Source: an uncultured Gammaproteobacteria bacterium (GTDB taxonomy: Bacteria; Patescibacteriota; Microgenomatia; UBA12405; JAHJSD01). Taken from it: 35,263 bases of DNA. The stretch is from positions 28,058 to 63,320 of the forward strand of contig CAYYDT010000001.1 in the NCBI GenBank assembly GCA_964470705.1, written 5' to 3'. The notes beneath the pieces are model-generated. The model did not search any database, had not been told where the DNA came from, and was given only the letters and a program-made list of their open reading frames with translations. Of this stretch, positions 7,183-35,263 are shown in pieces; the stretch's first letter is position 1; every line of letters starts with the position of its first letter. The position numbers were made by a program, and so were the translations under genes.

Positions 7183-7679
7183 TGTATACCGATAAAGTTT
7201 TAGACCATTTTCAGAATCCGAAAAATTACGGCGAGATTAAAAGCCCAGATGGTATTGGTAAAGTTGGTAATGTTATTTGTGGCGATGTAATGTGGCTTTA
7301 TATCAAGGTGGACAAAAATCAGTCTGGCGAAGAGATTATTGACGATATTAAATTTAAAACTTTTGGTTGTGCGGCGGCGATTGCTACCAGCAGTATGGTT
7401 ACTGAGTTAGCTAAAGGAATGACTCTGGATCAAGCAGTAAAAATCAATAACCAGGATATAGTATCTGGATTAGGTGATTTGCCGCCGGTAAAAGTTCACT
7501 GTTCTGTGTTGGCGGCTGATGCTTTGGTTGAGGCGGTTTATGATTATTTATCCCAAAATGGTAAAAAGATTGATCAAAATTTAAAAAAACGCCATCAACG
7601 GATAGTTCGTGAAAAAAATATTATTGAAGAAAAGTATGGTCAATGGCAGGAGGGAGGTGAATCTGATGACTCCACTTAA
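7182..7679 (+). CDS. iscU: Fe-S cluster scaffold, IscU / NifU N-terminal type
   Basis: Three ligand Cys contexts (VICGDVM, FGCAAAIATSS, HCSVLA). TAATG overlap with the desulfurase gene. Confidence 0.9.
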   Translation: MYTDKVLDHFQNPKNYGEIKSPDGIGKVGNVICGDVMWLYIKVDKNQSGEEIIDDIKFKTFGCAAAIATSSMVTELAKGMTLDQAVKINNQDIVSGLGDLPPVKVHCSVLAADALVEAVYDYLSQNGKKIDQNLKKRHQRIVREKNIIEEKYGQWQEGGESDDST

Positions 7680-7980
7680 ATTAACAAGCAACAATTTCCA
7701 AGAAGAGGTTTTAGATTCAGAAAAACCTGTTTTGGTTGATTTTTGGGCAATTTGGTGCGGACCCTGCCGGGTGATGGACCCGATAATTAAAGAAGTAGCA
7801 GAGGAGTTGGGGGAAAAAGTAAAAGTTGGCAAATTAAATGTCGATGAAAATCAACAACTAGCAAGTGAATACGAAGTGCAGGCTATTCCAACAGTAATAA
7901 TTTTTAAAGACGGCCAGCCGGTAGAACGGTTGATTGGTATCCAGCCGAAAGAAAAATATCTGCAATCCCTAGAGGGGTAA
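7666..7980 (+). CDS. trxA: thioredoxin
   Basis: VLVDFWAIWCGPC active site and cis-Pro context AIPTV. ATG at 7666 follows AGGGAGGTGA; the 7609 ORF start lies inside iscU. Confidence 0.9.
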   Translation: MTPLKLTSNNFQEEVLDSEKPVLVDFWAIWCGPCRVMDPIIKEVAEELGEKVKVGKLNVDENQQLASEYEVQAIPTVIIFKDGQPVERLIGIQPKEKYLQSLEG

Positions 7981-30575: not shown

Positions 30576-30604
30576 TTGACAAATAATTATATCATTATTA
30601 GTAT
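30576..30604 (+). promoter_or_regulatory. putative promoter TTGACA-N17-TAGTAT for the 30623-35263 operon
   Basis: -35 at 30576-30581 and -10 at 30599-30604. Confidence 0.45.
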
Positions 30605-30622: not shown

Positions 30623-32338
30623 ATGTCTGTTAATAAAAAATTTAAAAACCTTTTTCCTGCGCTGTTGTTTTTTGTGGTTTCTTTTTTAGTTTTTGCCGGC
30701 TCAACAAAAGCACAGAATAAAACAACTATTTATTTCTTCTGGGGTGAGGGCTGTCCCCATTGTGCTAGTCAAAAAGAGTTTATCGACCAATGGGAGGATA
30801 AATATCCAGAATTGGAAGTAAAAAAAATTAATGCTTGGGAAAATGAAGAAAGCGCTCAGTTGTATGAGCAAATGGCAAAGTCGTATGGTATTGAAGCTAG
30901 GGGAGTGCCGGCAACTTTTATCGGCGATCACGATCCGATAATTGGCTTTGCCGAATATATTGCCGGTGACATAGAAGAAAAAATAGTTGATTGTATTGAA
31001 AATGGCTGTATTGATCCTGGAGAAAAAGCCGGGGTTGACACTAATCAGCAATCTCAACAGCAAACCAACGAGGTTTGTCTTCACTTTTTCTATCAAGAAG
31101 ATTGTGACCAGTGCCGGAATGTCGAGAGTTTATTAGCAGATCTGGAAAAAGAGTATCAGATCAATATTAGTAGATATAATGTTGATCAAGACAAAGAGTT
31201 ATACCAGCAGTTTAAAGAAACATACGGTCTAGCTGGCGCCGCTCATCCGATTATTTTTATCGGCGAGCGTTATTTAATTGGAGAATCTGGAATAAAAGAT
31301 TATTTGGAAAGGGAGATCCTCCTTTGTCAGGACCAGAGGTGTCAATGCCCGGTTGAAGAAATTCAGGCCTACACACCGGCACTGCCTAAAAAAGGTGATG
31401 CTGACCCGGAAAAGGAATACCAGGTTAATGTGCCTATTTTGGGAGAAGTTAATATTTCGGAAATGTCTTTACCGGTGATGACGGGTTTAATTTCTTTTGT
31501 TGATGGTTTTAACCCCTGCTCTTTGTGGCTGATTACCTTTTTGCTGGGTATTGTTATTCACACCGGGTCAAGAAAAAAGATTGTTCTAGTCGGCTTAACA
31601 TTTCTTTTAGTCACTTCGTTTATCTACGCCTTATTTATGGTCGGCTTATTAAAAGTCTTTACTTATGTTGGTTACATGGATTGGATTAAAATAGTCATTG
31701 CTTTAGTTGCCCTGATTTTTGCTTCGGTAAATATTAAGGATTATTTTTGGTATAAAAAGGGTGTCTCGTTGACTATTTCCGACAAATTTAAACCCAAAAT
31801 TTTCAGCCAGATTAGGGGTATTATGAATAAAAAATCTGACTTAGGAATGATGGCCGGAACAGTTGTTTTAGCGATTGGGGTTGCTTTGGTTGAACTTCCC
31901 TGCACCGCCGGTTTTCCGGTAATTTGGACAAGTATTCTGGCAGATCGCAATGTTGTCGGCAGTGCTTTTTACGGCTTGTTAATTATTTATATTTTAGTAT
32001 ATTTGCTCGATGAACTAATAGTTTTTGGCAGTATAGCCCTAACTTTAAGGGTCAGTGCTTTTGAAGAGAAGCACGGCCGTACCTTAAAACTGATCGGCGG
32101 GATGATCATGATGTCTCTGGCAGTTACCTTGTTGACAAAGCCGGAATTGATGGAAAGCGTTTCTGGAACATTGGTTGTTTTCGGCGCTGCTCTTGGTTTG
32201 TCGTTTTTGATATTAATTGTCCATCGCAAGTTTTTACCTAATTTGGGTGTGGAAATTGGAACTGAAAACCTTGCTTCAGAAGATGAACAAATAGAGGATC
32301 AGCAATTCAATATTAAAAATCAAACAAAGGAGGAATAA
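30623..32338 (+). CDS. signal peptide + two thioredoxin/glutaredoxin-like domains (CPHC, CDQC) + DsbD/CcdA-like polytopic membrane domain
   Basis: 571 aa. Signal-like N-terminus ending STKAQ. FFWGEGCPHC...GVPATFIG and FFYQEDCDQC...HPIIFIG (CxxC plus cis-Pro contexts). Then about 6-7 TM segments with Pro-Cys motifs in the first and fourth helices (DGFNPCSLW, ELPCTAGFP). Confidence 0.7.
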   Translation: MSVNKKFKNLFPALLFFVVSFLVFAGSTKAQNKTTIYFFWGEGCPHCASQKEFIDQWEDKYPELEVKKINAWENEESAQLYEQMAKSYGIEARGVPATFIGDHDPIIGFAEYIAGDIEEKIVDCIENGCIDPGEKAGVDTNQQSQQQTNEVCLHFFYQEDCDQCRNVESLLADLEKEYQINISRYNVDQDKELYQQFKETYGLAGAAHPIIFIGERYLIGESGIKDYLEREILLCQDQRCQCPVEEIQAYTPALPKKGDADPEKEYQVNVPILGEVNISEMSLPVMTGLISFVDGFNPCSLWLITFLLGIVIHTGSRKKIVLVGLTFLLVTSFIYALFMVGLLKVFTYVGYMDWIKIVIALVALIFASVNIKDYFWYKKGVSLTISDKFKPKIFSQIRGIMNKKSDLGMMAGTVVLAIGVALVELPCTAGFPVIWTSILADRNVVGSAFYGLLIIYILVYLLDELIVFGSIALTLRVSAFEEKHGRTLKLIGGMIMMSLAVTLLTKPELMESVSGTLVVFGAALGLSFLILIVHRKFLPNLGVEIGTENLASEDEQIEDQQFNIKNQTKEE

Positions 32339-32341
32339 AAA

Positions 32342-32761
32342 ATGAATAACCTTAATTTTCCAGACAATTTACTTTATAACCTTGATTTTTCTTGGGTGAA
32401 AATTGATGGAGAAATAGCTACCTTAGGAATTATTAAGCCCGCTGCCGATAAAGTAAAAGAGTTTGTTTTTATAAAGTTGCCGAAAGAAGGGGAAAAGGTT
32501 GCCCGCGGTGAGACTTACACTTCATTAGAAGCGCTGAAATGGAGTGGACAGATTGCTTCCCCCTTATCTGGAGAAATCGTTGAAGTTCACCAAGAACTTT
32601 TTGACCAGCCGGCAATTATTAATCAGGACCCTTATGGTAAGGGGTGGATTGCGAAACTAAAAGTAGGAAATCCAGAGGAAATAAAAGAATTATTAGATTC
32701 AAAGCAAATTGCTCAACAGGCAAGTGGTGATTTGTCAGAGGAGGTGAATAAAAGTGAATGA
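32342..32761 (+). CDS. gcvH: glycine-cleavage H-protein-like lipoyl carrier
   Basis: 139 aa. LEALKWSGQIASPLSGEIVEV matches the H-protein lipoyl-lysine motif (E-x-x-K-x(7)-P-x-SG-x-V-x-E-V). AAGGAGGAA SD inside the end of the upstream gene. Confidence 0.8.
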   Translation: MNNLNFPDNLLYNLDFSWVKIDGEIATLGIIKPAADKVKEFVFIKLPKEGEKVARGETYTSLEALKWSGQIASPLSGEIVEVHQELFDQPAIINQDPYGKGWIAKLKVGNPEEIKELLDSKQIAQQASGDLSEEVNKSE

Positions 32762-33524
32762 CTTGAAAAGTTTACAAAGGAAAATTGACAAGTTAATCAG
32801 CCCAAAAGGTGTGCCGGTAGGGGTGAAGTTGTTGAAATCAAAAAATACTTTGAAAGAAAATGAAATTATTCCCTTGGAAAACAACCGGGCTTTGTGCCAA
32901 CTTTTAAAAATGGTTGCTGTTTATGAAAAAACCAGAGGTGTTTATGTAAATAATATTGATGCCTGTGTTGTCGGCTCATATGTTATGGGGTTTGAATTGC
33001 CTCCGGAAGATCTAAAAGACCGGTGGGTTAAAGGCTTTGGTTATACATCTGAGAAATTTGATCAGTTATCTGATCAAATTGAGGCCATGCCGCAAGATAA
33101 ATACGAAGCGGCTGTTTTCGGCCCGCTTCAAGTGTTTGACCAATTAAATTTAGATCCGGAAGCAGTAATTCTTTTAGTTAATTCCTGCCAGAGTTATCTT
33201 GCTTTGATGGGTTATTTTGATGCTACCGGAAAAAAACCGGAATCTAATTTCAACGGTCATGCCGCTTGCGAAATTATTGCTGCGGTTGCTCAAGGTAAAT
33301 CACCTTGGTTGACAATTCCCTGCGGTGGGGCAAGAAGTATTGCTGATGCTCAAGATGACGAGATTTGGCTTGGGATGACGGTTGATCATCTGAAAACTTC
33401 CATTCAACGTTTGGAAATAATGGGGTTAAAATATCCGCCGGCAATTACCCAAATGCCGGTATCAGATTTAAACCCTGATCACCCATTGACTGATTTATTA
33501 GTCAGGGACGTCGATAAAAAGTAA
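32754..33524 (+). CDS. DUF169 (COG2043) family protein
   Basis: 256 aa. GTG start after GAGGAGGTGA, 8-nt overlap with gcvH. Conserved Cys contexts (DACVVGSY, GHAACE, IPCGGARS). Family call is from memory. Confidence 0.55.
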   Translation: MNDLKSLQRKIDKLISPKGVPVGVKLLKSKNTLKENEIIPLENNRALCQLLKMVAVYEKTRGVYVNNIDACVVGSYVMGFELPPEDLKDRWVKGFGYTSEKFDQLSDQIEAMPQDKYEAAVFGPLQVFDQLNLDPEAVILLVNSCQSYLALMGYFDATGKKPESNFNGHAACEIIAAVAQGKSPWLTIPCGGARSIADAQDDEIWLGMTVDHLKTSIQRLEIMGLKYPPAITQMPVSDLNPDHPLTDLLVRDVDKK

Positions 33525-34375
33525 TGAGCCTAACAAAATGGCCTGATTGGATAAAAATAAAACCATACAATAAATCAAAATATCTAAAAACATTAAAGAT
33601 TATAAACGATAATAAATTAACAACTGTTTGTTTGGAGGCAAATTGCCCGAACAGGTACGAGTGTTTTTCTTCCGGTACGGCAACATTTATGATTTTGGGT
33701 GACACCTGCACCAGAAACTGCCGTTACTGCAATGTCAAAAAAGGTTCCCCGAACCTGGTTGACAAAAATGAGCCGAAAAGGATTGCCCAGGCAGTAAAAA
33801 AATTAAATTTAGACTATGCAGTGATCACTTGTGTTACCCGCGATGATCTGGATGACGGCGGCGCCGGCCAATTTGTTAAAACAGTTGATGAAATAAAAAA
33901 AGTTAAACCAGGTTGTAAAATAGAATTGCTGGTTTCGGACTTAAAAGGAGACAAAAAATCGCTTGCCAAACTGCTGGTTGCAAACCCGGATGTTTTCAAT
34001 CATAATATTGAAGTAGTTGAATACTTATTTTCTTTATTAAGACCGGGAGGCGATTATCAGCGGTCAGTTAATTTGCTGGCTGCGGCGAAAGAAATTCAAC
34101 CTAAGATTGTTTTGAAATCCGGTTTAATGATTGGTCTAGGTGAGACAAAAGAACAAATTATCAGGACTTTTAAGGATCTAAAAGCAGCTGGCTGCCAAGT
34201 ATTAACTGTTGGCCAATATTTACCGCCGACACCGGCACATGTTCCTGTAAAAAAGTTTTACCAGCCGGAAGAGTTCGAAAGTTTAAAAAAGGAAGCAAAT
34301 TCTTTAGGTTTTGCTAAAGTGGAAGCAGGACCATTAGTAAGAAGTTCATATCGAGCGATGGAGGTGATTAATTAA
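33524..34375 (+). CDS. lipA: lipoyl synthase
   Basis: Auxiliary-cluster CLEANCPNRYEC and radical-SAM CTRNCRYC motifs, and C-terminal RSSYRA. TAATG overlaps at both ends. Confidence 0.92.
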   Translation: MSLTKWPDWIKIKPYNKSKYLKTLKIINDNKLTTVCLEANCPNRYECFSSGTATFMILGDTCTRNCRYCNVKKGSPNLVDKNEPKRIAQAVKKLNLDYAVITCVTRDDLDDGGAGQFVKTVDEIKKVKPGCKIELLVSDLKGDKKSLAKLLVANPDVFNHNIEVVEYLFSLLRPGGDYQRSVNLLAAAKEIQPKIVLKSGLMIGLGETKEQIIRTFKDLKAAGCQVLTVGQYLPPTPAHVPVKKFYQPEEFESLKKEANSLGFAKVEAGPLVRSSYRAMEVIN

Positions 34376-34914
34376 TGAAAAAAAACAAACTTTATTTTCT
34401 GATTTTAATAACCGTTTTTCTCGGCTTTTCGGCTATCTATATGGGGTACCTTATTTATATGGAAACCCAATCCGCACCTAAAATTGCCGGCGAAATGGAA
34501 GTAGCCGATCAACCGCTGATAACTGGGTTCCAGTCGGAAGAAGACGCGCTAGTTAAGGCGCCAAAAATTATTGATGCCGGGATCGGGTCTATTGAATTGA
34601 CAATGGACAAGGAGGCTTATATTTCTCATGAAGACGTTGAAATGACTCTTAACTTGGAAGTTGACAATGAGATTGAAAACGCAGAAATAAGAATTACTGG
34701 TATTAAGCCTCACCAAACTGCCTACATTAGGGAGACAAAAGTTGTCGATTTAAAAGAAGGTGAAAATACAATTGTTATTGTTGTAAAAGCTCCTTCATGT
34801 ACTAGCGGCTGCGGTGGTGTGTATCCCGGGCCGTATGACATTGAGGCAGAGGTGTTCGTTGATGAAGGTTTAGCTGGTCAGACGCTAACAACAATAACTT
34901 TAGCGGAAGAATAA
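34375..34914 (+). CDS. membrane-anchored hypothetical protein with SCTSGCGG (CxxxC) motif
   Basis: 179 aa. N-terminal TM helix and an acidic, predicted beta-rich ectodomain. Embedded between lipA and the ligase gene. Confidence 0.6.
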   Translation: MKKNKLYFLILITVFLGFSAIYMGYLIYMETQSAPKIAGEMEVADQPLITGFQSEEDALVKAPKIIDAGIGSIELTMDKEAYISHEDVEMTLNLEVDNEIENAEIRITGIKPHQTAYIRETKVVDLKEGENTIVIVVKAPSCTSGCGGVYPGPYDIEAEVFVDEGLAGQTLTTITLAEE

Positions 34915-35263
34915 ATGGACAGGGTACGACTTTTAAAATTGATAAAAGACAGCGGACCGATGCAGATGGCTGTTGATGAGGCAATAGCTTTAAGTTGTGC
35001 ACAGGGAAAGGTTTTGCCCACCTTGCGCTTTTATATTTTTGACCCTCCGGCAATAACTCTCGGACACAGCCAGTTGATCGATCAGTTTAATTTAAGCGCA
35101 GTTGAGAAAAAAGGTTTTCACTTGGTGAGAAGAATTACCGGCGGGACAGCTGTTTTGCATAAAAACGACTTAGTTTATTCATTGGTCATGCCGGAAAATT
35201 TTTTGCCTGAAAAAGTGGTTGATGCTTACCGGTTTTTAAGCGACGGTTTAGTTGAAGGGTTGA
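34915..35263 (+). CDS. lipoate-protein ligase / octanoyltransferase (LplA-LipM family), 3' end cut by window edge
   Basis: Frame open to the window end: PTLRFYIFDPPAITLGHSQ...VRRITGGTAVLH is the BPL/LplA/LipB catalytic-domain N-terminus. ATG immediately follows the upstream TAA. Confidence 0.8.
   Translation, partial: MDRVRLLKLIKDSGPMQMAVDEAIALSCAQGKVLPTLRFYIFDPPAITLGHSQLIDQFNLSAVEKKGFHLVRRITGGTAVLHKNDLVYSLVMPENFLPEKVVDAYRFLSDGLVEGL

What the first reader, a model, noticed from the sequence alone, without database searches (positions are those of the whole stretch)
32754..33524. DUF169 gene wedged between gcvH and lipA with overlapping stop/start codons
DUF169 has no assigned function. Here it overlaps gcvH by 8 nt and lipA by 1 nt, so its synthesis is coupled to a lipoyl carrier and the lipoyl synthase. 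It has three Cys-containing conserved-looking blocks.

Candidate roles, all inference:
- a reductase or partner that recycles the lipoyl-H protein;
- an amidotransferase equivalent to LipL;
- an adaptor to the membrane protein.

This context could give a functional handle on an orphan family.
Basis: inference. Interest (0 to 1): 0.6.

Follow-up and report, generated by a model that had tools for sequence, protein, structure and literature searches.

The report
DUF169 partner of lipoyl carrier protein
A gene of unknown function (DUF169) really is wedged between the lipoic-acid carrier gene and the lipoic-acid synthase gene of this ultra-small bacterium. The same link to lipoic-acid proteins recurs in distant bacteria and archaea, which for the first time points this orphan family toward a thiol-redox job on the lipoyl arm.

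Summary
ORF 32754-33524 (+) is a DUF169 (PF02596) protein that overlaps gcvH by 8 nt and lipA by 1 nt.

It belongs to a compact, highly conserved DUF169 subfamily. Four cysteines are invariant, not three. The confident predicted fold matches no solved structure.

The adjacency is not unique to this genome:
- All 18 relatives found in ultra-small bacteria (CPR) and archaea (DPANN) sit in the same module: a membrane protein with thioredoxin domains, GcvH, DUF169 and LplA, with or without LipA.
- In 13 Thermoproteota loci the same subfamily lies beside 2-oxoacid dehydrogenase E1/E2 and LplA genes.

This genome has no glycine-cleavage T protein, E2 or E3, so its GcvH is an orphan lipoyl carrier.

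Searching from the GcvH side changes the picture. Only 2 of at least 22 such modules in a DPANN sample carry DUF169. Its slot after gcvH otherwise holds an AhpD-like CxxC protein or an exported thioredoxin-like lipoprotein. DUF169 and the AhpD-like protein never co-occur.

Genomes with neither LipA nor LipS2 keep DUF169, so it is not a lipoyl-synthase helper.

Best reading (about 45%): an optional cytoplasmic redox partner of the lipoyl arm. The direction of electron flow and the cofactor are unknown.

Earlier notes of this scan saw the same module on other DNA.

The parts
30576..30604 (+). Promoter-like site (TTGACA-17-TAGTAT) ahead of the six-gene operon
   Evidence: Consensus scan, 10 of 12 matches. 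Such matches are no more frequent here than in shuffled sequence, so this is only suggestive.
30623..32338 (+). TrxMem: a 571-aa protein with a signal peptide, two thioredoxin/glutaredoxin-fold domains and a polytopic membrane domain carrying two conserved Cys
   Evidence: Pfam Glutaredoxin/Thioredoxin_2 hits cover residues 29-217. The membrane half has no Pfam hit. C44, C47, C299 and C427 are invariant in 11 orthologues. It lies directly upstream of gcvH in the CPR/DPANN modules.
32342..32761 (+). gcvH: an orphan lipoyl carrier (H-protein fold) with lipoyl-lysine K66 in an invariant E-x-x-K-W motif
   Evidence: PF01597 8e-35. E63, K66 and W67 are invariant in 13 module GcvHs. The genome has no GCV_T, E2 or E3.
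32739..32745 (+). Shine-Dalgarno sequence (GAGGAGG) for DUF169, inside the 3' end of gcvH
   Evidence: Read directly from the sequence. It lies 8 nt before GTG 32754.
32754..33524 (+). DUF169 gene (256 aa), a member of a compact subfamily with four invariant Cys; the subject of this finding
   Evidence: PF02596, 100.4 bits. Homologues share 40-78% identity. Invariant residues are listed. AF2 model pLDDT is 89.8. No structural match in PDB or BFVD.
33524..34375 (+). lipA, lipoyl synthase (radical SAM)
   Evidence: NCBIfam lipoyl synthase 388 bits; TIGR00510 349.7 bits against a cut-off of 310.
34375..34914 (+). p179: an anchored ectodomain protein with a CxxxC pair; an optional module member
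   Evidence: No significant Pfam hit. Orthologues occupy the same position in L003, L021, L176, L178 and L183.
34915..35263 (+). lplA, lipoate-protein ligase catalytic domain. This is the 5' part; the gene runs off the contig and continues on contig C12.
   Evidence: PF21948 8e-18. The continuation is on G000:C12, with overlapping peptide. No LplB (PF10437) was found in the genome.

Best explanation
The gene encodes a cytoplasmic DUF169 protein that works with protein-bound lipoic acid.

The operon (TrxMem, GcvH, DUF169, LipA, p179, LplA) is one version of a gene module found in ultra-small bacteria and archaea. In that module an orphan H protein receives its own lipoyl cofactor and serves as a dithiol/disulfide carrier. 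It is wired to a membrane protein that has four conserved cysteines and exported thioredoxin domains.

DUF169 sits in the slot directly after gcvH. In sister modules that slot holds an AhpD-like CxxC protein or a thioredoxin-like lipoprotein. I therefore infer that DUF169 is an optional redox partner of the lipoyl arm. It would use its conserved cysteines (C48 and C172 family-wide; C71 and C190 as well in this subfamily), either as redox-active thiols or as ligands of an iron-sulfur cluster. It would pass electrons either out of dihydrolipoyl-GcvH to an acceptor, as AhpD does, or into lipoyl-GcvH in genomes such as this one that lack any E3-like or CoADR-like flavoprotein.

Shown: gene identity, operon structure, conserved linkage to lipoyl proteins in two unrelated contexts, slot sharing, and independence from lipoyl synthases.

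Inferred: the redox chemistry, its direction, the cofactor and the ultimate acceptor or donor.
For: 1. Linkage. All 18 CPR/DPANN loci that hold the subfamily carry TrxMem-GcvH-DUF169-LplA or the visible part of it. Thirteen Thermoproteota loci place it next to or within about 6 kb of E1alpha/beta, E2, an AcoX-like gene and LplA, in several different gene orders. In Thermococcus aggregans gcvH lies 2.6 kb away.
2. Independence of the associations. On the tree the gcvH-context sequences fall in at least three clades, with bacteria and archaea interleaved, separate from the OADH clade.
3. Slot sharing. In 20 modules found from the GcvH side, the gene after gcvH is an exported Trx-like lipoprotein (11) or a cytoplasmic AhpD-like CMD/CxxC protein (7), followed by a CoADR/Nox-class flavoprotein. 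The AhpD-like protein occurs in 0 of 19 DUF169 modules against 9 of 22 others (p = 0.0017). The flavoprotein occurs in 6 of 14 against 15 of 18 (p = 0.027).
4. Precedent. AhpD is a known acceptor of electrons from a lipoyl protein: NADH to Lpd to DlaT to AhpD to AhpC (PMC12028322).
5. Orphan carrier. This genome has no E3/Pyr_redox_dim, E2 or GCV_T, so its GcvH cannot serve glycine cleavage. Canonical gcvT-gcvH-gcvP operons in the phylum have no DUF169, and 80 mostly canonical gcvH loci have none.
6. Protein features. There are four invariant Cys, each at the N-terminus of a helix in an alpha/beta fold. C48 and C172 are near-invariant across the wider family. The wider family includes fusions to 2x[4Fe-4S] ferredoxin domains and to CoaE, which fits redox or thiol-cofactor chemistry.
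7. Co-occurrence. An LplA-type ligase is present in 23 of 23 genomes whose DUF169 has no lipoyl neighbour.
Against: - There is no biochemical evidence of any kind.
- No fold relative exists from which to borrow a mechanism.
- There is no CxxC motif and no nucleotide-binding motif.
- I could not inspect model coordinates, so the proximity of the four Cys is inferred from secondary-structure positions only.
- Slot sharing is positional evidence, and the counts are not phylogenetically independent.
- About 20 of 54 loci show no lipoyl gene within 8 kb.
- One Sulfolobales/Desulfurococcales clade couples DUF169 tightly to a LarA-like gene and a Zn-ADH, which a lipoyl-redox role does not explain.
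- In this genome I found no candidate donor or acceptor. There is no peroxiredoxin, no small ferredoxin (only one 330-aa Fer4 protein) and no TrxB, although the assembly is only 91% complete.
- An LplA ligase is common in prokaryotes (13 of 14 control genomes), so point 7 in the evidence for is weak.
Confidence: 0.45

Rival explanations
1. DUF169 helps lipoate salvage or attachment rather than redox cycling. It could be a cysteine-type lipoamidase that frees lipoate from host lipoyl-lysine or peptides for LplA, a LipL-like lipoyl/octanoyl transferase, or an accessory subunit of the short LplA.
For: - DUF169 is immediately followed by LplA or LplA-LplB in L002, L005, L019, L022, L035 and L037, and is adjacent to LplA in L011 and L013.
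- It is kept in genomes that appear to be salvage-only, with no LipA or LipS2.
- The subfamily has an invariant His169-x-x-Cys172 and acidic residues.
- The only weak fold hits are thiolase-type Cys enzymes: probability at most 0.38, TM at most 0.28.
- This genome has a short LplA and no LplB.
Against: - Only 2 of at least 22 orphan-GcvH modules in the DPANN sample have DUF169, so lipoylation of GcvH does not need it.
- LplB is present right after LplA in many DUF169 modules, so DUF169 is not an LplB substitute.
- CPR genomes have no E2 acceptor for an amidotransferase.
- His169 is not conserved in the wider family.
- The slot is otherwise used by redox proteins.
- There is no similarity to PF21948 or PF10437.
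Confidence: 0.17
2. DUF169 supplies sulfur or rebuilds the sacrificial auxiliary Fe-S cluster of the radical-SAM lipoyl synthase LipA, which is why its stop codon overlaps the lipA start.
For: - The 1-nt overlap with lipA is seen here and in L003, L006 and L007.
- Four invariant Cys could hold a cluster.
- The sister locus L002 has YeeE-DsrE-DsrF-DsrH directly upstream of lipA.
- Earlier scan notes, unchecked here, pair other DUF169 subfamilies with SepCysS, radical-SAM and Nfu proteins.
Against: - Nine of nine CPR/DPANN genomes whose module lacks lipA have neither LipA (TIGR00510) nor LipS2 anywhere, yet keep DUF169.
- The same holds for three OADH-context Thermoproteota genomes.
- Most LipA-containing modules in DPANN have no DUF169.
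Confidence: 0.07
3. DUF169 is a cytoplasmic adaptor that docks dihydrolipoyl-GcvH onto the membrane protein TrxMem.
For: TrxMem, GcvH and DUF169 are co-linear and tightly packed in all CPR/DPANN DUF169 loci with enough flank. The four TrxMem cysteines are conserved.
Against: Thermoproteota, Thermococcus and Acetothermia orthologues (45-61% identical) have no TrxMem nearby. At least 20 TrxMem-GcvH modules function without DUF169.
Confidence: 0.05
4. The link to lipoate is indirect. DUF169 acts on another thiol or small molecule, such as CoA, pantetheine or a 2-hydroxy/2-oxo acid derivative, whose metabolism merely neighbours lipoyl enzymes.
For: - The wider family has fusions to CoaE (two cases), MaoC and MtaA/URO-D.
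- The flavoprotein after DUF169 is of the CoA-disulfide-reductase class, with the single-Cys motif YSPCALPY.
- There is a LarA-like / DUF169 / Zn-ADH / DHDPS clade.
- About 20 loci have no lipoyl neighbour.
Against: In tiny CPR/DPANN genomes the subfamily is found only inside the lipoyl-GcvH module (18 of 18). It was found in none of the 400 other genomes sampled from the Patescibacteria and in none of the 399 other DPANN genomes sampled. Proximity to OADH genes persists through several rearrangements.
Confidence: 0.2

Closest known systems
Mycobacterium tuberculosis AhpD in the NADH-Lpd-DlaT(lipoyl)-AhpD-AhpC peroxidase relay (PMC12028322)
   Same: AhpD is a small cytoplasmic cysteine protein that takes electrons from a protein-bound dihydrolipoyl group. 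AhpD-like CMD/CxxC genes occupy exactly the DUF169 slot (gcvH, then X, then flavoprotein) in sister modules and never co-occur with DUF169.
   Different: There is no sequence or fold relationship. DUF169 has no CMD domain and no CxxC; its Cys are dispersed, and it is 256 aa against about 115-175 aa. No AhpC-type peroxiredoxin was found in this genome. The carrier is GcvH, not E2. The function of DUF169 is untested.
Dihydrolipoyl dehydrogenase E3 (Lpd) and CoADR/Nox-class flavoprotein disulfide reductases
   Same: These are the known enzymes that reduce or oxidise the lipoyl dithiolane. A CoADR-class flavoprotein follows DUF169 in L001, L010, L020 and L021, and it is the only Pyr_redox_dim gene in those genomes.
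   Different: DUF169 has no FAD/NAD Rossmann motif and no Pyr_redox HMM hit. In this genome no such flavoprotein exists.
GcvH-L / LplA2 / SirTM operon of Staphylococcus aureus and relatives (PMC12440151, PMC4518038)
   Same: It is a stand-alone H-protein paralogue with its own ligase, used for oxidative-stress defence rather than glycine cleavage.
   Different: The partners are a macrodomain and an ADP-ribosylating sirtuin. It has no DUF169, no membrane thiol relay and no LipA.
sHdr-LbpA sulfur-oxidation system with dedicated sLpl(AB)/LipS1/LipS2 lipoylation (PMC6067878, PMC10332631)
   Same: It has a GcvH-like lipoate-binding protein with a dedicated assembly set, next to DsrE/TusA-type sulfur relay genes. 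The sister locus L002 and module L176 carry YeeE-DsrE-DsrF-DsrH beside lipA.
   Different: No sHdr subunits are present here, and this genome has no DsrE or YeeE. DUF169 is not part of the described sHdr clusters.
DsbD/CcdA-thioredoxin transmembrane reductant relay
   Same: TrxMem has exported CxxC thioredoxin domains plus two conserved membrane-embedded Cys, as expected for moving reducing power outward from a cytoplasmic dithiol.
   Different: The membrane domain hits no DsbD or other Pfam model. The presumed cytoplasmic donor is lipoyl-GcvH rather than thioredoxin. This resemblance was not tested further here.

Membership tests
Pfam PF02596 DUF169 (COG2043) | Full-length match to the family HMM above the gathering score | tested here: met
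   100.4 bits against a cut-off of 27, E 1.6e-28, profile positions 1-206 of 209. Confirmed on the genome.
Pfam PF02596 DUF169 (COG2043) | Family-wide near-invariant residues (Cys-Gln near residue 48, Cys172, G192-x-R194, D201-x-E203, Q146, P135) | tested here: met
   All are present in the window protein in an alignment with 21 distant DUF169 members.
Lipoyl-linked DUF169 subfamily (defined here) | Four invariant Cys plus the GHAACE, PWLTIPCGGAR and QDDE-W blocks; at least 40% identity to other members; a clear score gap from other DUF169 proteins | tested here: met
   Invariant columns are listed. Only 13 of 603 family representatives reach E <= 1e-30; the best scores 363 bits and the remainder score about 111 bits or less.
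AhpD / carboxymuconolactone decarboxylase family (PF02627) | CMD fold with a CxxC active site | tested here: not met
   No CMD hit for DUF169. An HMM built from the slot AhpD-like proteins finds nothing in this genome or in the 54 DUF169 loci. DUF169 has no CxxC motif.
Dihydrolipoyl dehydrogenase / pyridine nucleotide-disulfide oxidoreductases | FAD and NAD Rossmann domains (PF07992) and a dimerisation domain (PF02852) | tested here: not met
   No such hits for DUF169. No PF02852 anywhere in the genome.
LplA/LipB/LipM/LipL lipoyl(octanoyl) transferases (PF21948/PF03099) and LplB (PF10437) | Catalytic domain HMM match, or the small C-terminal-domain subunit | tested here: not met
   No hit for DUF169. 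LplB genes exist separately in many DUF169 modules.
Thioredoxin-fold oxidoreductases | Trx fold with a CxxC (or CxxS) motif | tested here: not met
   No Trx-type Pfam hit. No structural match in the PDB.
Iron-sulfur cluster proteins (generic) | A cluster bound by three or four Cys | not testable with these tools
   Four invariant Cys at helix N-termini are compatible with a cluster.

The most novel reading that the evidence does not exclude
DUF169 is a new, flavin-free class of enzyme acting on protein-bound lipoate. It would be an iron-sulfur or cysteine-based lipoyl/dihydrolipoyl oxidoreductase, not homologous to E3 or AhpD. It would let organisms without any E3-type flavoprotein charge or discharge a lipoyl carrier. 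If so, the whole DUF169 family (about 600 representative clusters) would be thiol/disulfide-cofactor oxidoreductases.
Probability: 0.2. Interest if true: 0.85.

Novelty: new variant of a known kind. Interest (0 to 1): 0.6.

Why it matters
DUF169 is an old orphan family. It has about 600 representative clusters at 50% identity, no solved structure and no functional paper in the searchable literature. This subfamily now has a concrete, testable partner: lipoylated GcvH or E2.

The surrounding module is an orphan lipoyl carrier with its own cofactor assembly, a CoADR-like flavoprotein, interchangeable thiol-redox accessories and a membrane relay with exported thioredoxin domains. I did not find it described in the papers searched. 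It occurs in roughly 5-10% of the DPANN genomes sampled.

If the model is right, lipoate serves as a general thiol reductant in organisms that have no 2-oxoacid dehydrogenases or glycine cleavage system, and DUF169 is a non-homologous stand-in for AhpD or E3.

Tried and rejected
- Structure route. The AF2 model is confident (pLDDT 89.8), but Foldseek against PDB and BFVD gave nothing below E 0.01. The PDB sequence-profile search gave nothing. The weak thiolase-fold hits were treated as noise.
- DsrE-like fold idea. hhalign of the DUF169 profile against the DsrE of L002 gave probability 0.1. Rejected.
- E3-replacement idea for the OADH context. All five Thermoproteota genomes tested have a Pyr_redox_dim gene elsewhere, so replacement is not required there.
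- LplB-substitute idea. LplB lies right after LplA in many DUF169 modules. Rejected.
- LipA-helper idea. Rejected by the absence of LipA and LipS2.
- Idea that the module replaces thioredoxin reductase. TrxB is present in 15 of 17 module genomes and in 196 of 201 genomes sampled from the phylum. Rejected; its absence from this 91%-complete assembly may be a gap.
- Metagenome scan with the module-type GcvH profile. It returned mostly canonical GcvH, useful only as a negative control and for two DUF169-less modules.
- Literature searches (DUF169; COG2043; lipoate/DPANN/GcvH; lipoyl + Patescibacteria; GcvH + DsbD) found no functional description.
Full report
**1. Observation**

The ORF at 32754-33524 (+) is real and sits exactly as described.

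- It starts at GTG 32754. A GAGGAGG ribosome-binding site lies 8 nt upstream, inside the last codons of gcvH.
- gcvH ends at TGA 32759-32761, which gives an 8-nt overlap.
- The DUF169 stop TAA (33522-33524) shares its last A with the lipA ATG, a 1-nt overlap.
- Pfam gives DUF169 (PF02596) at E 1.6e-28, 100.4 bits against a cut-off of 27, covering profile positions 1-206 of 209. NCBIfam has no model for it.
- The flanking genes are a bona fide GcvH (PF01597, 8e-35), LipA (lipoyl synthase models 388 and 350 bits) and an LplA-type ligase.
- Upstream is a 571-aa protein, here called TrxMem. It has two thioredoxin/glutaredoxin-fold domains and a polytopic membrane half that matches no Pfam model.
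- The ligase gene runs off the contig and continues on contig C12 of the same assembly.

**2. The protein**

- A database search found 97 homologues at 40-78% identity. They come from CPR bacteria, DPANN archaea, Thermococcus aggregans (61%), Acetothermia and many Thermoproteota.
- In an alignment of 23 of them, C48, C71, C172 and C190 are invariant. So are the blocks ALCQ, DACVVG, GHAACE, PWLTIPCGGAR and QDDE-W.
- Against 1.84 billion representative proteins, the DUF169 family has 603 representatives at E <= 0.001. Only 13 reach E <= 1e-30, so this is a compact, sharply separated subfamily.
- Aligned with distant DUF169 members, C48, C172, G192, R194, D201, E203, Q146 and P135 remain near-invariant. 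C71 and C190 are usually but not always kept.
- Some distant members are fused to 2x[4Fe-4S] ferredoxin domains, dephospho-CoA kinase, MaoC or an MtaA/URO-D domain.
- The AF2 model is confident (pLDDT 89.8, pTM 0.86). It is an alpha/beta fold, and each of the four Cys sits at the N-terminus of a helix.
- Foldseek found no match in the PDB (best TM 0.28) or in BFVD. A profile search of PDB sequences found nothing. There is no fold relative from which to borrow a mechanism.

**3. The genome**

- The assembly is 632 kb in 91 contigs and 91% complete.
- It has no Pyr_redox_dim/E3, no 2-oxoacid dehydrogenase E2, no glycine-cleavage T protein, no LplB, no peroxiredoxin and no detectable TrxB.
- It does have a classical thioredoxin and a second TrxMem paralogue on contig C87.
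- GcvH is therefore an orphan lipoyl carrier with its own LipA and ligase.

**4. Neighbourhoods, starting from DUF169**

A scan of one genome per species returned 54 loci.

- All 18 CPR/DPANN loci carry TrxMem-GcvH-DUF169-LplA, or the part of it visible on the contig. LipA, p179 and LplB are variably present. In six loci there is also a CoADR/Nox-class flavoprotein; in L001, L010, L020 and L021 it lies immediately after DUF169.
- That flavoprotein has a single active-site Cys (YSPCALPY). In the genomes that carry it in or beside the module, it is the only Pyr_redox_dim gene.
- In 13 Thermoproteota loci DUF169 lies beside or within about 6 kb of E1alpha, E1beta, an AcoX-like gene, E2 and LplA, in several different gene orders.
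- One clade also couples it tightly to a LarA-like gene and a Zn-ADH.
- In Thermococcus aggregans gcvH is 2.6 kb away.
- The remaining loci, roughly 20, show no lipoyl gene within 8 kb. All 23 of their genomes encode an LplA-type ligase. This is weak evidence, because LplA is common.
- On a maximum-likelihood tree the gcvH-context sequences form at least three clades with bacteria and archaea interleaved. That implies inter-domain transfer of the module. They are separate from the Thermoproteota clade.

**5. Neighbourhoods, starting from GcvH**

This changed my reading.

- In 400 other Patescibacteria genomes the DUF169 subfamily was not found. GcvH was found in only five good cases, all in gcvT-gcvH-gcvP operons without DUF169.
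- Eighty metagenomic gcvH loci, mostly canonical, contained no DUF169 of any kind. Two module-type loci among them, L093 and L138, also lack it.
- In a 401-genome sample of the DPANN phylum that holds L006 and L007, a module-type GcvH occurs in 41 genomes. DUF169 occurs only in the two already known.
- I fetched the 20 best-scoring of these modules. The common plan is TrxMem, GcvH, a slot, CoADR-like flavoprotein, then optionally LipA and p179, then LplA, then optionally LplB and p222.
- The slot holds an exported thioredoxin-like lipoprotein in 11 modules. It has a lipobox and the same FFWGDGCPHC motif as TrxMem.
- The slot holds a cytoplasmic AhpD-like CMD protein with a CxxC motif in 7 modules.
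- AhpD-like genes occur in 0 of 19 DUF169 modules against 9 of 22 others (Fisher p = 0.0017).
- The flavoprotein occurs in 6 of 14 complete DUF169 modules against 15 of 18 others (p = 0.027).
- These counts are not phylogenetically independent, so the p-values overstate the case.

The asymmetry is clear. In small genomes DUF169 is found only with the lipoyl-GcvH module, but the module usually does without DUF169. DUF169 is therefore an optional accessory that depends on the lipoyl carrier. It occupies the position otherwise used by thiol-redox partners.

**6. Excluding alternatives**

- *LipA helper.* Nine of nine CPR/DPANN genomes whose module lacks lipA have neither LipA nor LipS2 anywhere, and three OADH-context Thermoproteota genomes likewise. 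All keep DUF169.
- *LplB substitute.* LplB lies directly after LplA in many DUF169 modules.
- *LipL-like amidotransferase.* The CPR genomes have no E2 acceptor, DUF169 has no similarity to that family, and most modules lipoylate without it.
- *Membrane-protein adaptor.* Thermoproteota, Thermococcus and Acetothermia orthologues have no TrxMem nearby, and most TrxMem modules have no DUF169.
- *TrxB replacement by the module.* TrxB is present in 15 of 17 module genomes and in 196 of 201 genomes sampled from the phylum.
- *E3 replacement in OADH contexts.* Not required, because an E3-like gene exists elsewhere in those genomes.

**7. Most likely mechanism**

By position, by dependence on a lipoyl carrier in two unrelated contexts, and by its conserved cysteines, DUF169 is best read as a redox partner of the (dihydro)lipoyl arm.

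The nearest functional precedent is mycobacterial AhpD, which accepts electrons from lipoyl-DlaT in the chain NADH, Lpd, DlaT, AhpD, AhpC (PMC12028322).

The direction of electron flow is open.

- DUF169 may draw electrons from dihydrolipoyl-GcvH for an unknown acceptor.
- In genomes like this one, which lack any flavoprotein disulfide reductase, it may be the input that reduces lipoyl-GcvH. GcvH would then feed TrxMem and the exported thioredoxin domains.
- The partial anticorrelation with the flavoprotein favours the second option slightly.
- The ferredoxin-domain fusions in the wider family would fit an Fe-S enzyme.
- I found no small ferredoxin here.

I put the general redox-partner reading at about 0.45. 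A salvage or attachment role is at about 0.17, an indirect link through another thiol or small molecule at about 0.20, a LipA helper at about 0.07 and a membrane adaptor at about 0.05.

**8. Comparison with what is known, and novelty**

- The searchable literature has no functional statement on DUF169. It has incidental mentions only.
- I found no paper describing this module.
- Known relatives in concept are the Lpd-DlaT-AhpD-AhpC relay, the GcvH-L/LplA2/SirTM operon (PMC12440151), the sHdr-LbpA system (PMC6067878, PMC10332631) and the DsbD-thioredoxin relay.
- DUF169 is a member of none of the protein families involved; see the membership tests.
- Earlier notes of this scan recorded the same module on other DNA (e1-1137343, e1-724445), the LarA-DUF169 pairing (e1-2445981) and the lack of a solved DUF169 fold (e1-4074263). 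I re-derived these points independently here.
- I rate the finding a new variant of a known kind: a lipoyl-carrier thiol relay with a non-homologous accessory protein.

**9. Limits**

- No multimer model was possible, and I had no access to model coordinates.
- MAG incompleteness affects every statement of absence.
- Related genomes inflate the association statistics.

Noticed in passing
L173-L192 (DPANN genomes), L138; compare window 30623-35263: The orphan-GcvH module has a recurrent plan: TrxMem, GcvH, a slot, CoADR-like flavoprotein, (LipA), (p179), LplA, (LplB), (p222). The slot holds an AhpD-like protein, a Trx-lipoprotein or DUF169. A module-type GcvH occurs in 41 of the 401 DPANN genomes sampled. 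I did not find this module described in the papers searched.
   Followed up: partly
window 7609-7980 (TrxA-like, WCGPC); whole genome G000: The genome encodes a classical thioredoxin, but no thioredoxin reductase was found. TrxB is present in 196 of 201 genomes sampled from the phylum. This may be an assembly gap (91% complete) or a real loss.
   Followed up: partly
G000:C87:584-1666 (-): A second, shorter paralogue of the TrxMem protein, with the same FFWGEGCPHC motif, lies on another contig with no gcvH next to it in the 1.7 kb available.
   Followed up: no
L002:8-3575 and L176:3319-5321: In the closest sister locus and in one DPANN module, a YeeE/Sulf_transp transporter and DsrE-DsrF-DsrH sulfur-relay genes lie directly upstream of lipA. 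This links some versions of the module to sulfur trafficking. The window's genome has none of these.
   Followed up: partly
L011:2511-3362 (-), L012:6918-7760 (-): The E2 acyltransferases next to DUF169 in some Desulfurococcales have the E3-binding and catalytic domains but seem to lack an N-terminal lipoyl domain. A separate lipoyl carrier may serve them.
   Followed up: no
L038, L041-L047: A Sulfolobales/Desulfurococcales clade has a LarA-like gene overlapping or abutting DUF169, followed by a Zn-ADH and a DHDPS-family aldolase. The OADH E1beta lies 3.5-5.8 kb away in most of these loci. The lipoyl-redox model does not explain this coupling.
   Followed up: partly
L001-L005, L023 (record titles): MAGs titled Gammaproteobacteria, Pseudomonadales or Bdellovibrionales have 0.7-1.0 Mb genomes and carry the CPR-type module. 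Their DUF169 is 75-79% identical to the window's in L001-L005 and 53% in L023. The taxonomic labels look wrong.
   Followed up: no
L058:589-1275 (G000:C12), directly after lplA: A 228-aa DUF389 membrane protein follows the ligase gene by 79 nt. L003 has a same-sized ORF (230 aa) in the same position. It may be a seventh gene of the unit.
   Followed up: no
window 32342-32761 and 12 orthologues: Module-type GcvH proteins have an invariant Trp right after the lipoyl-lysine (E-A-x-K-W-S-G). This motif picked out module-type copies among 80 mostly canonical GcvH loci.
   Followed up: partly
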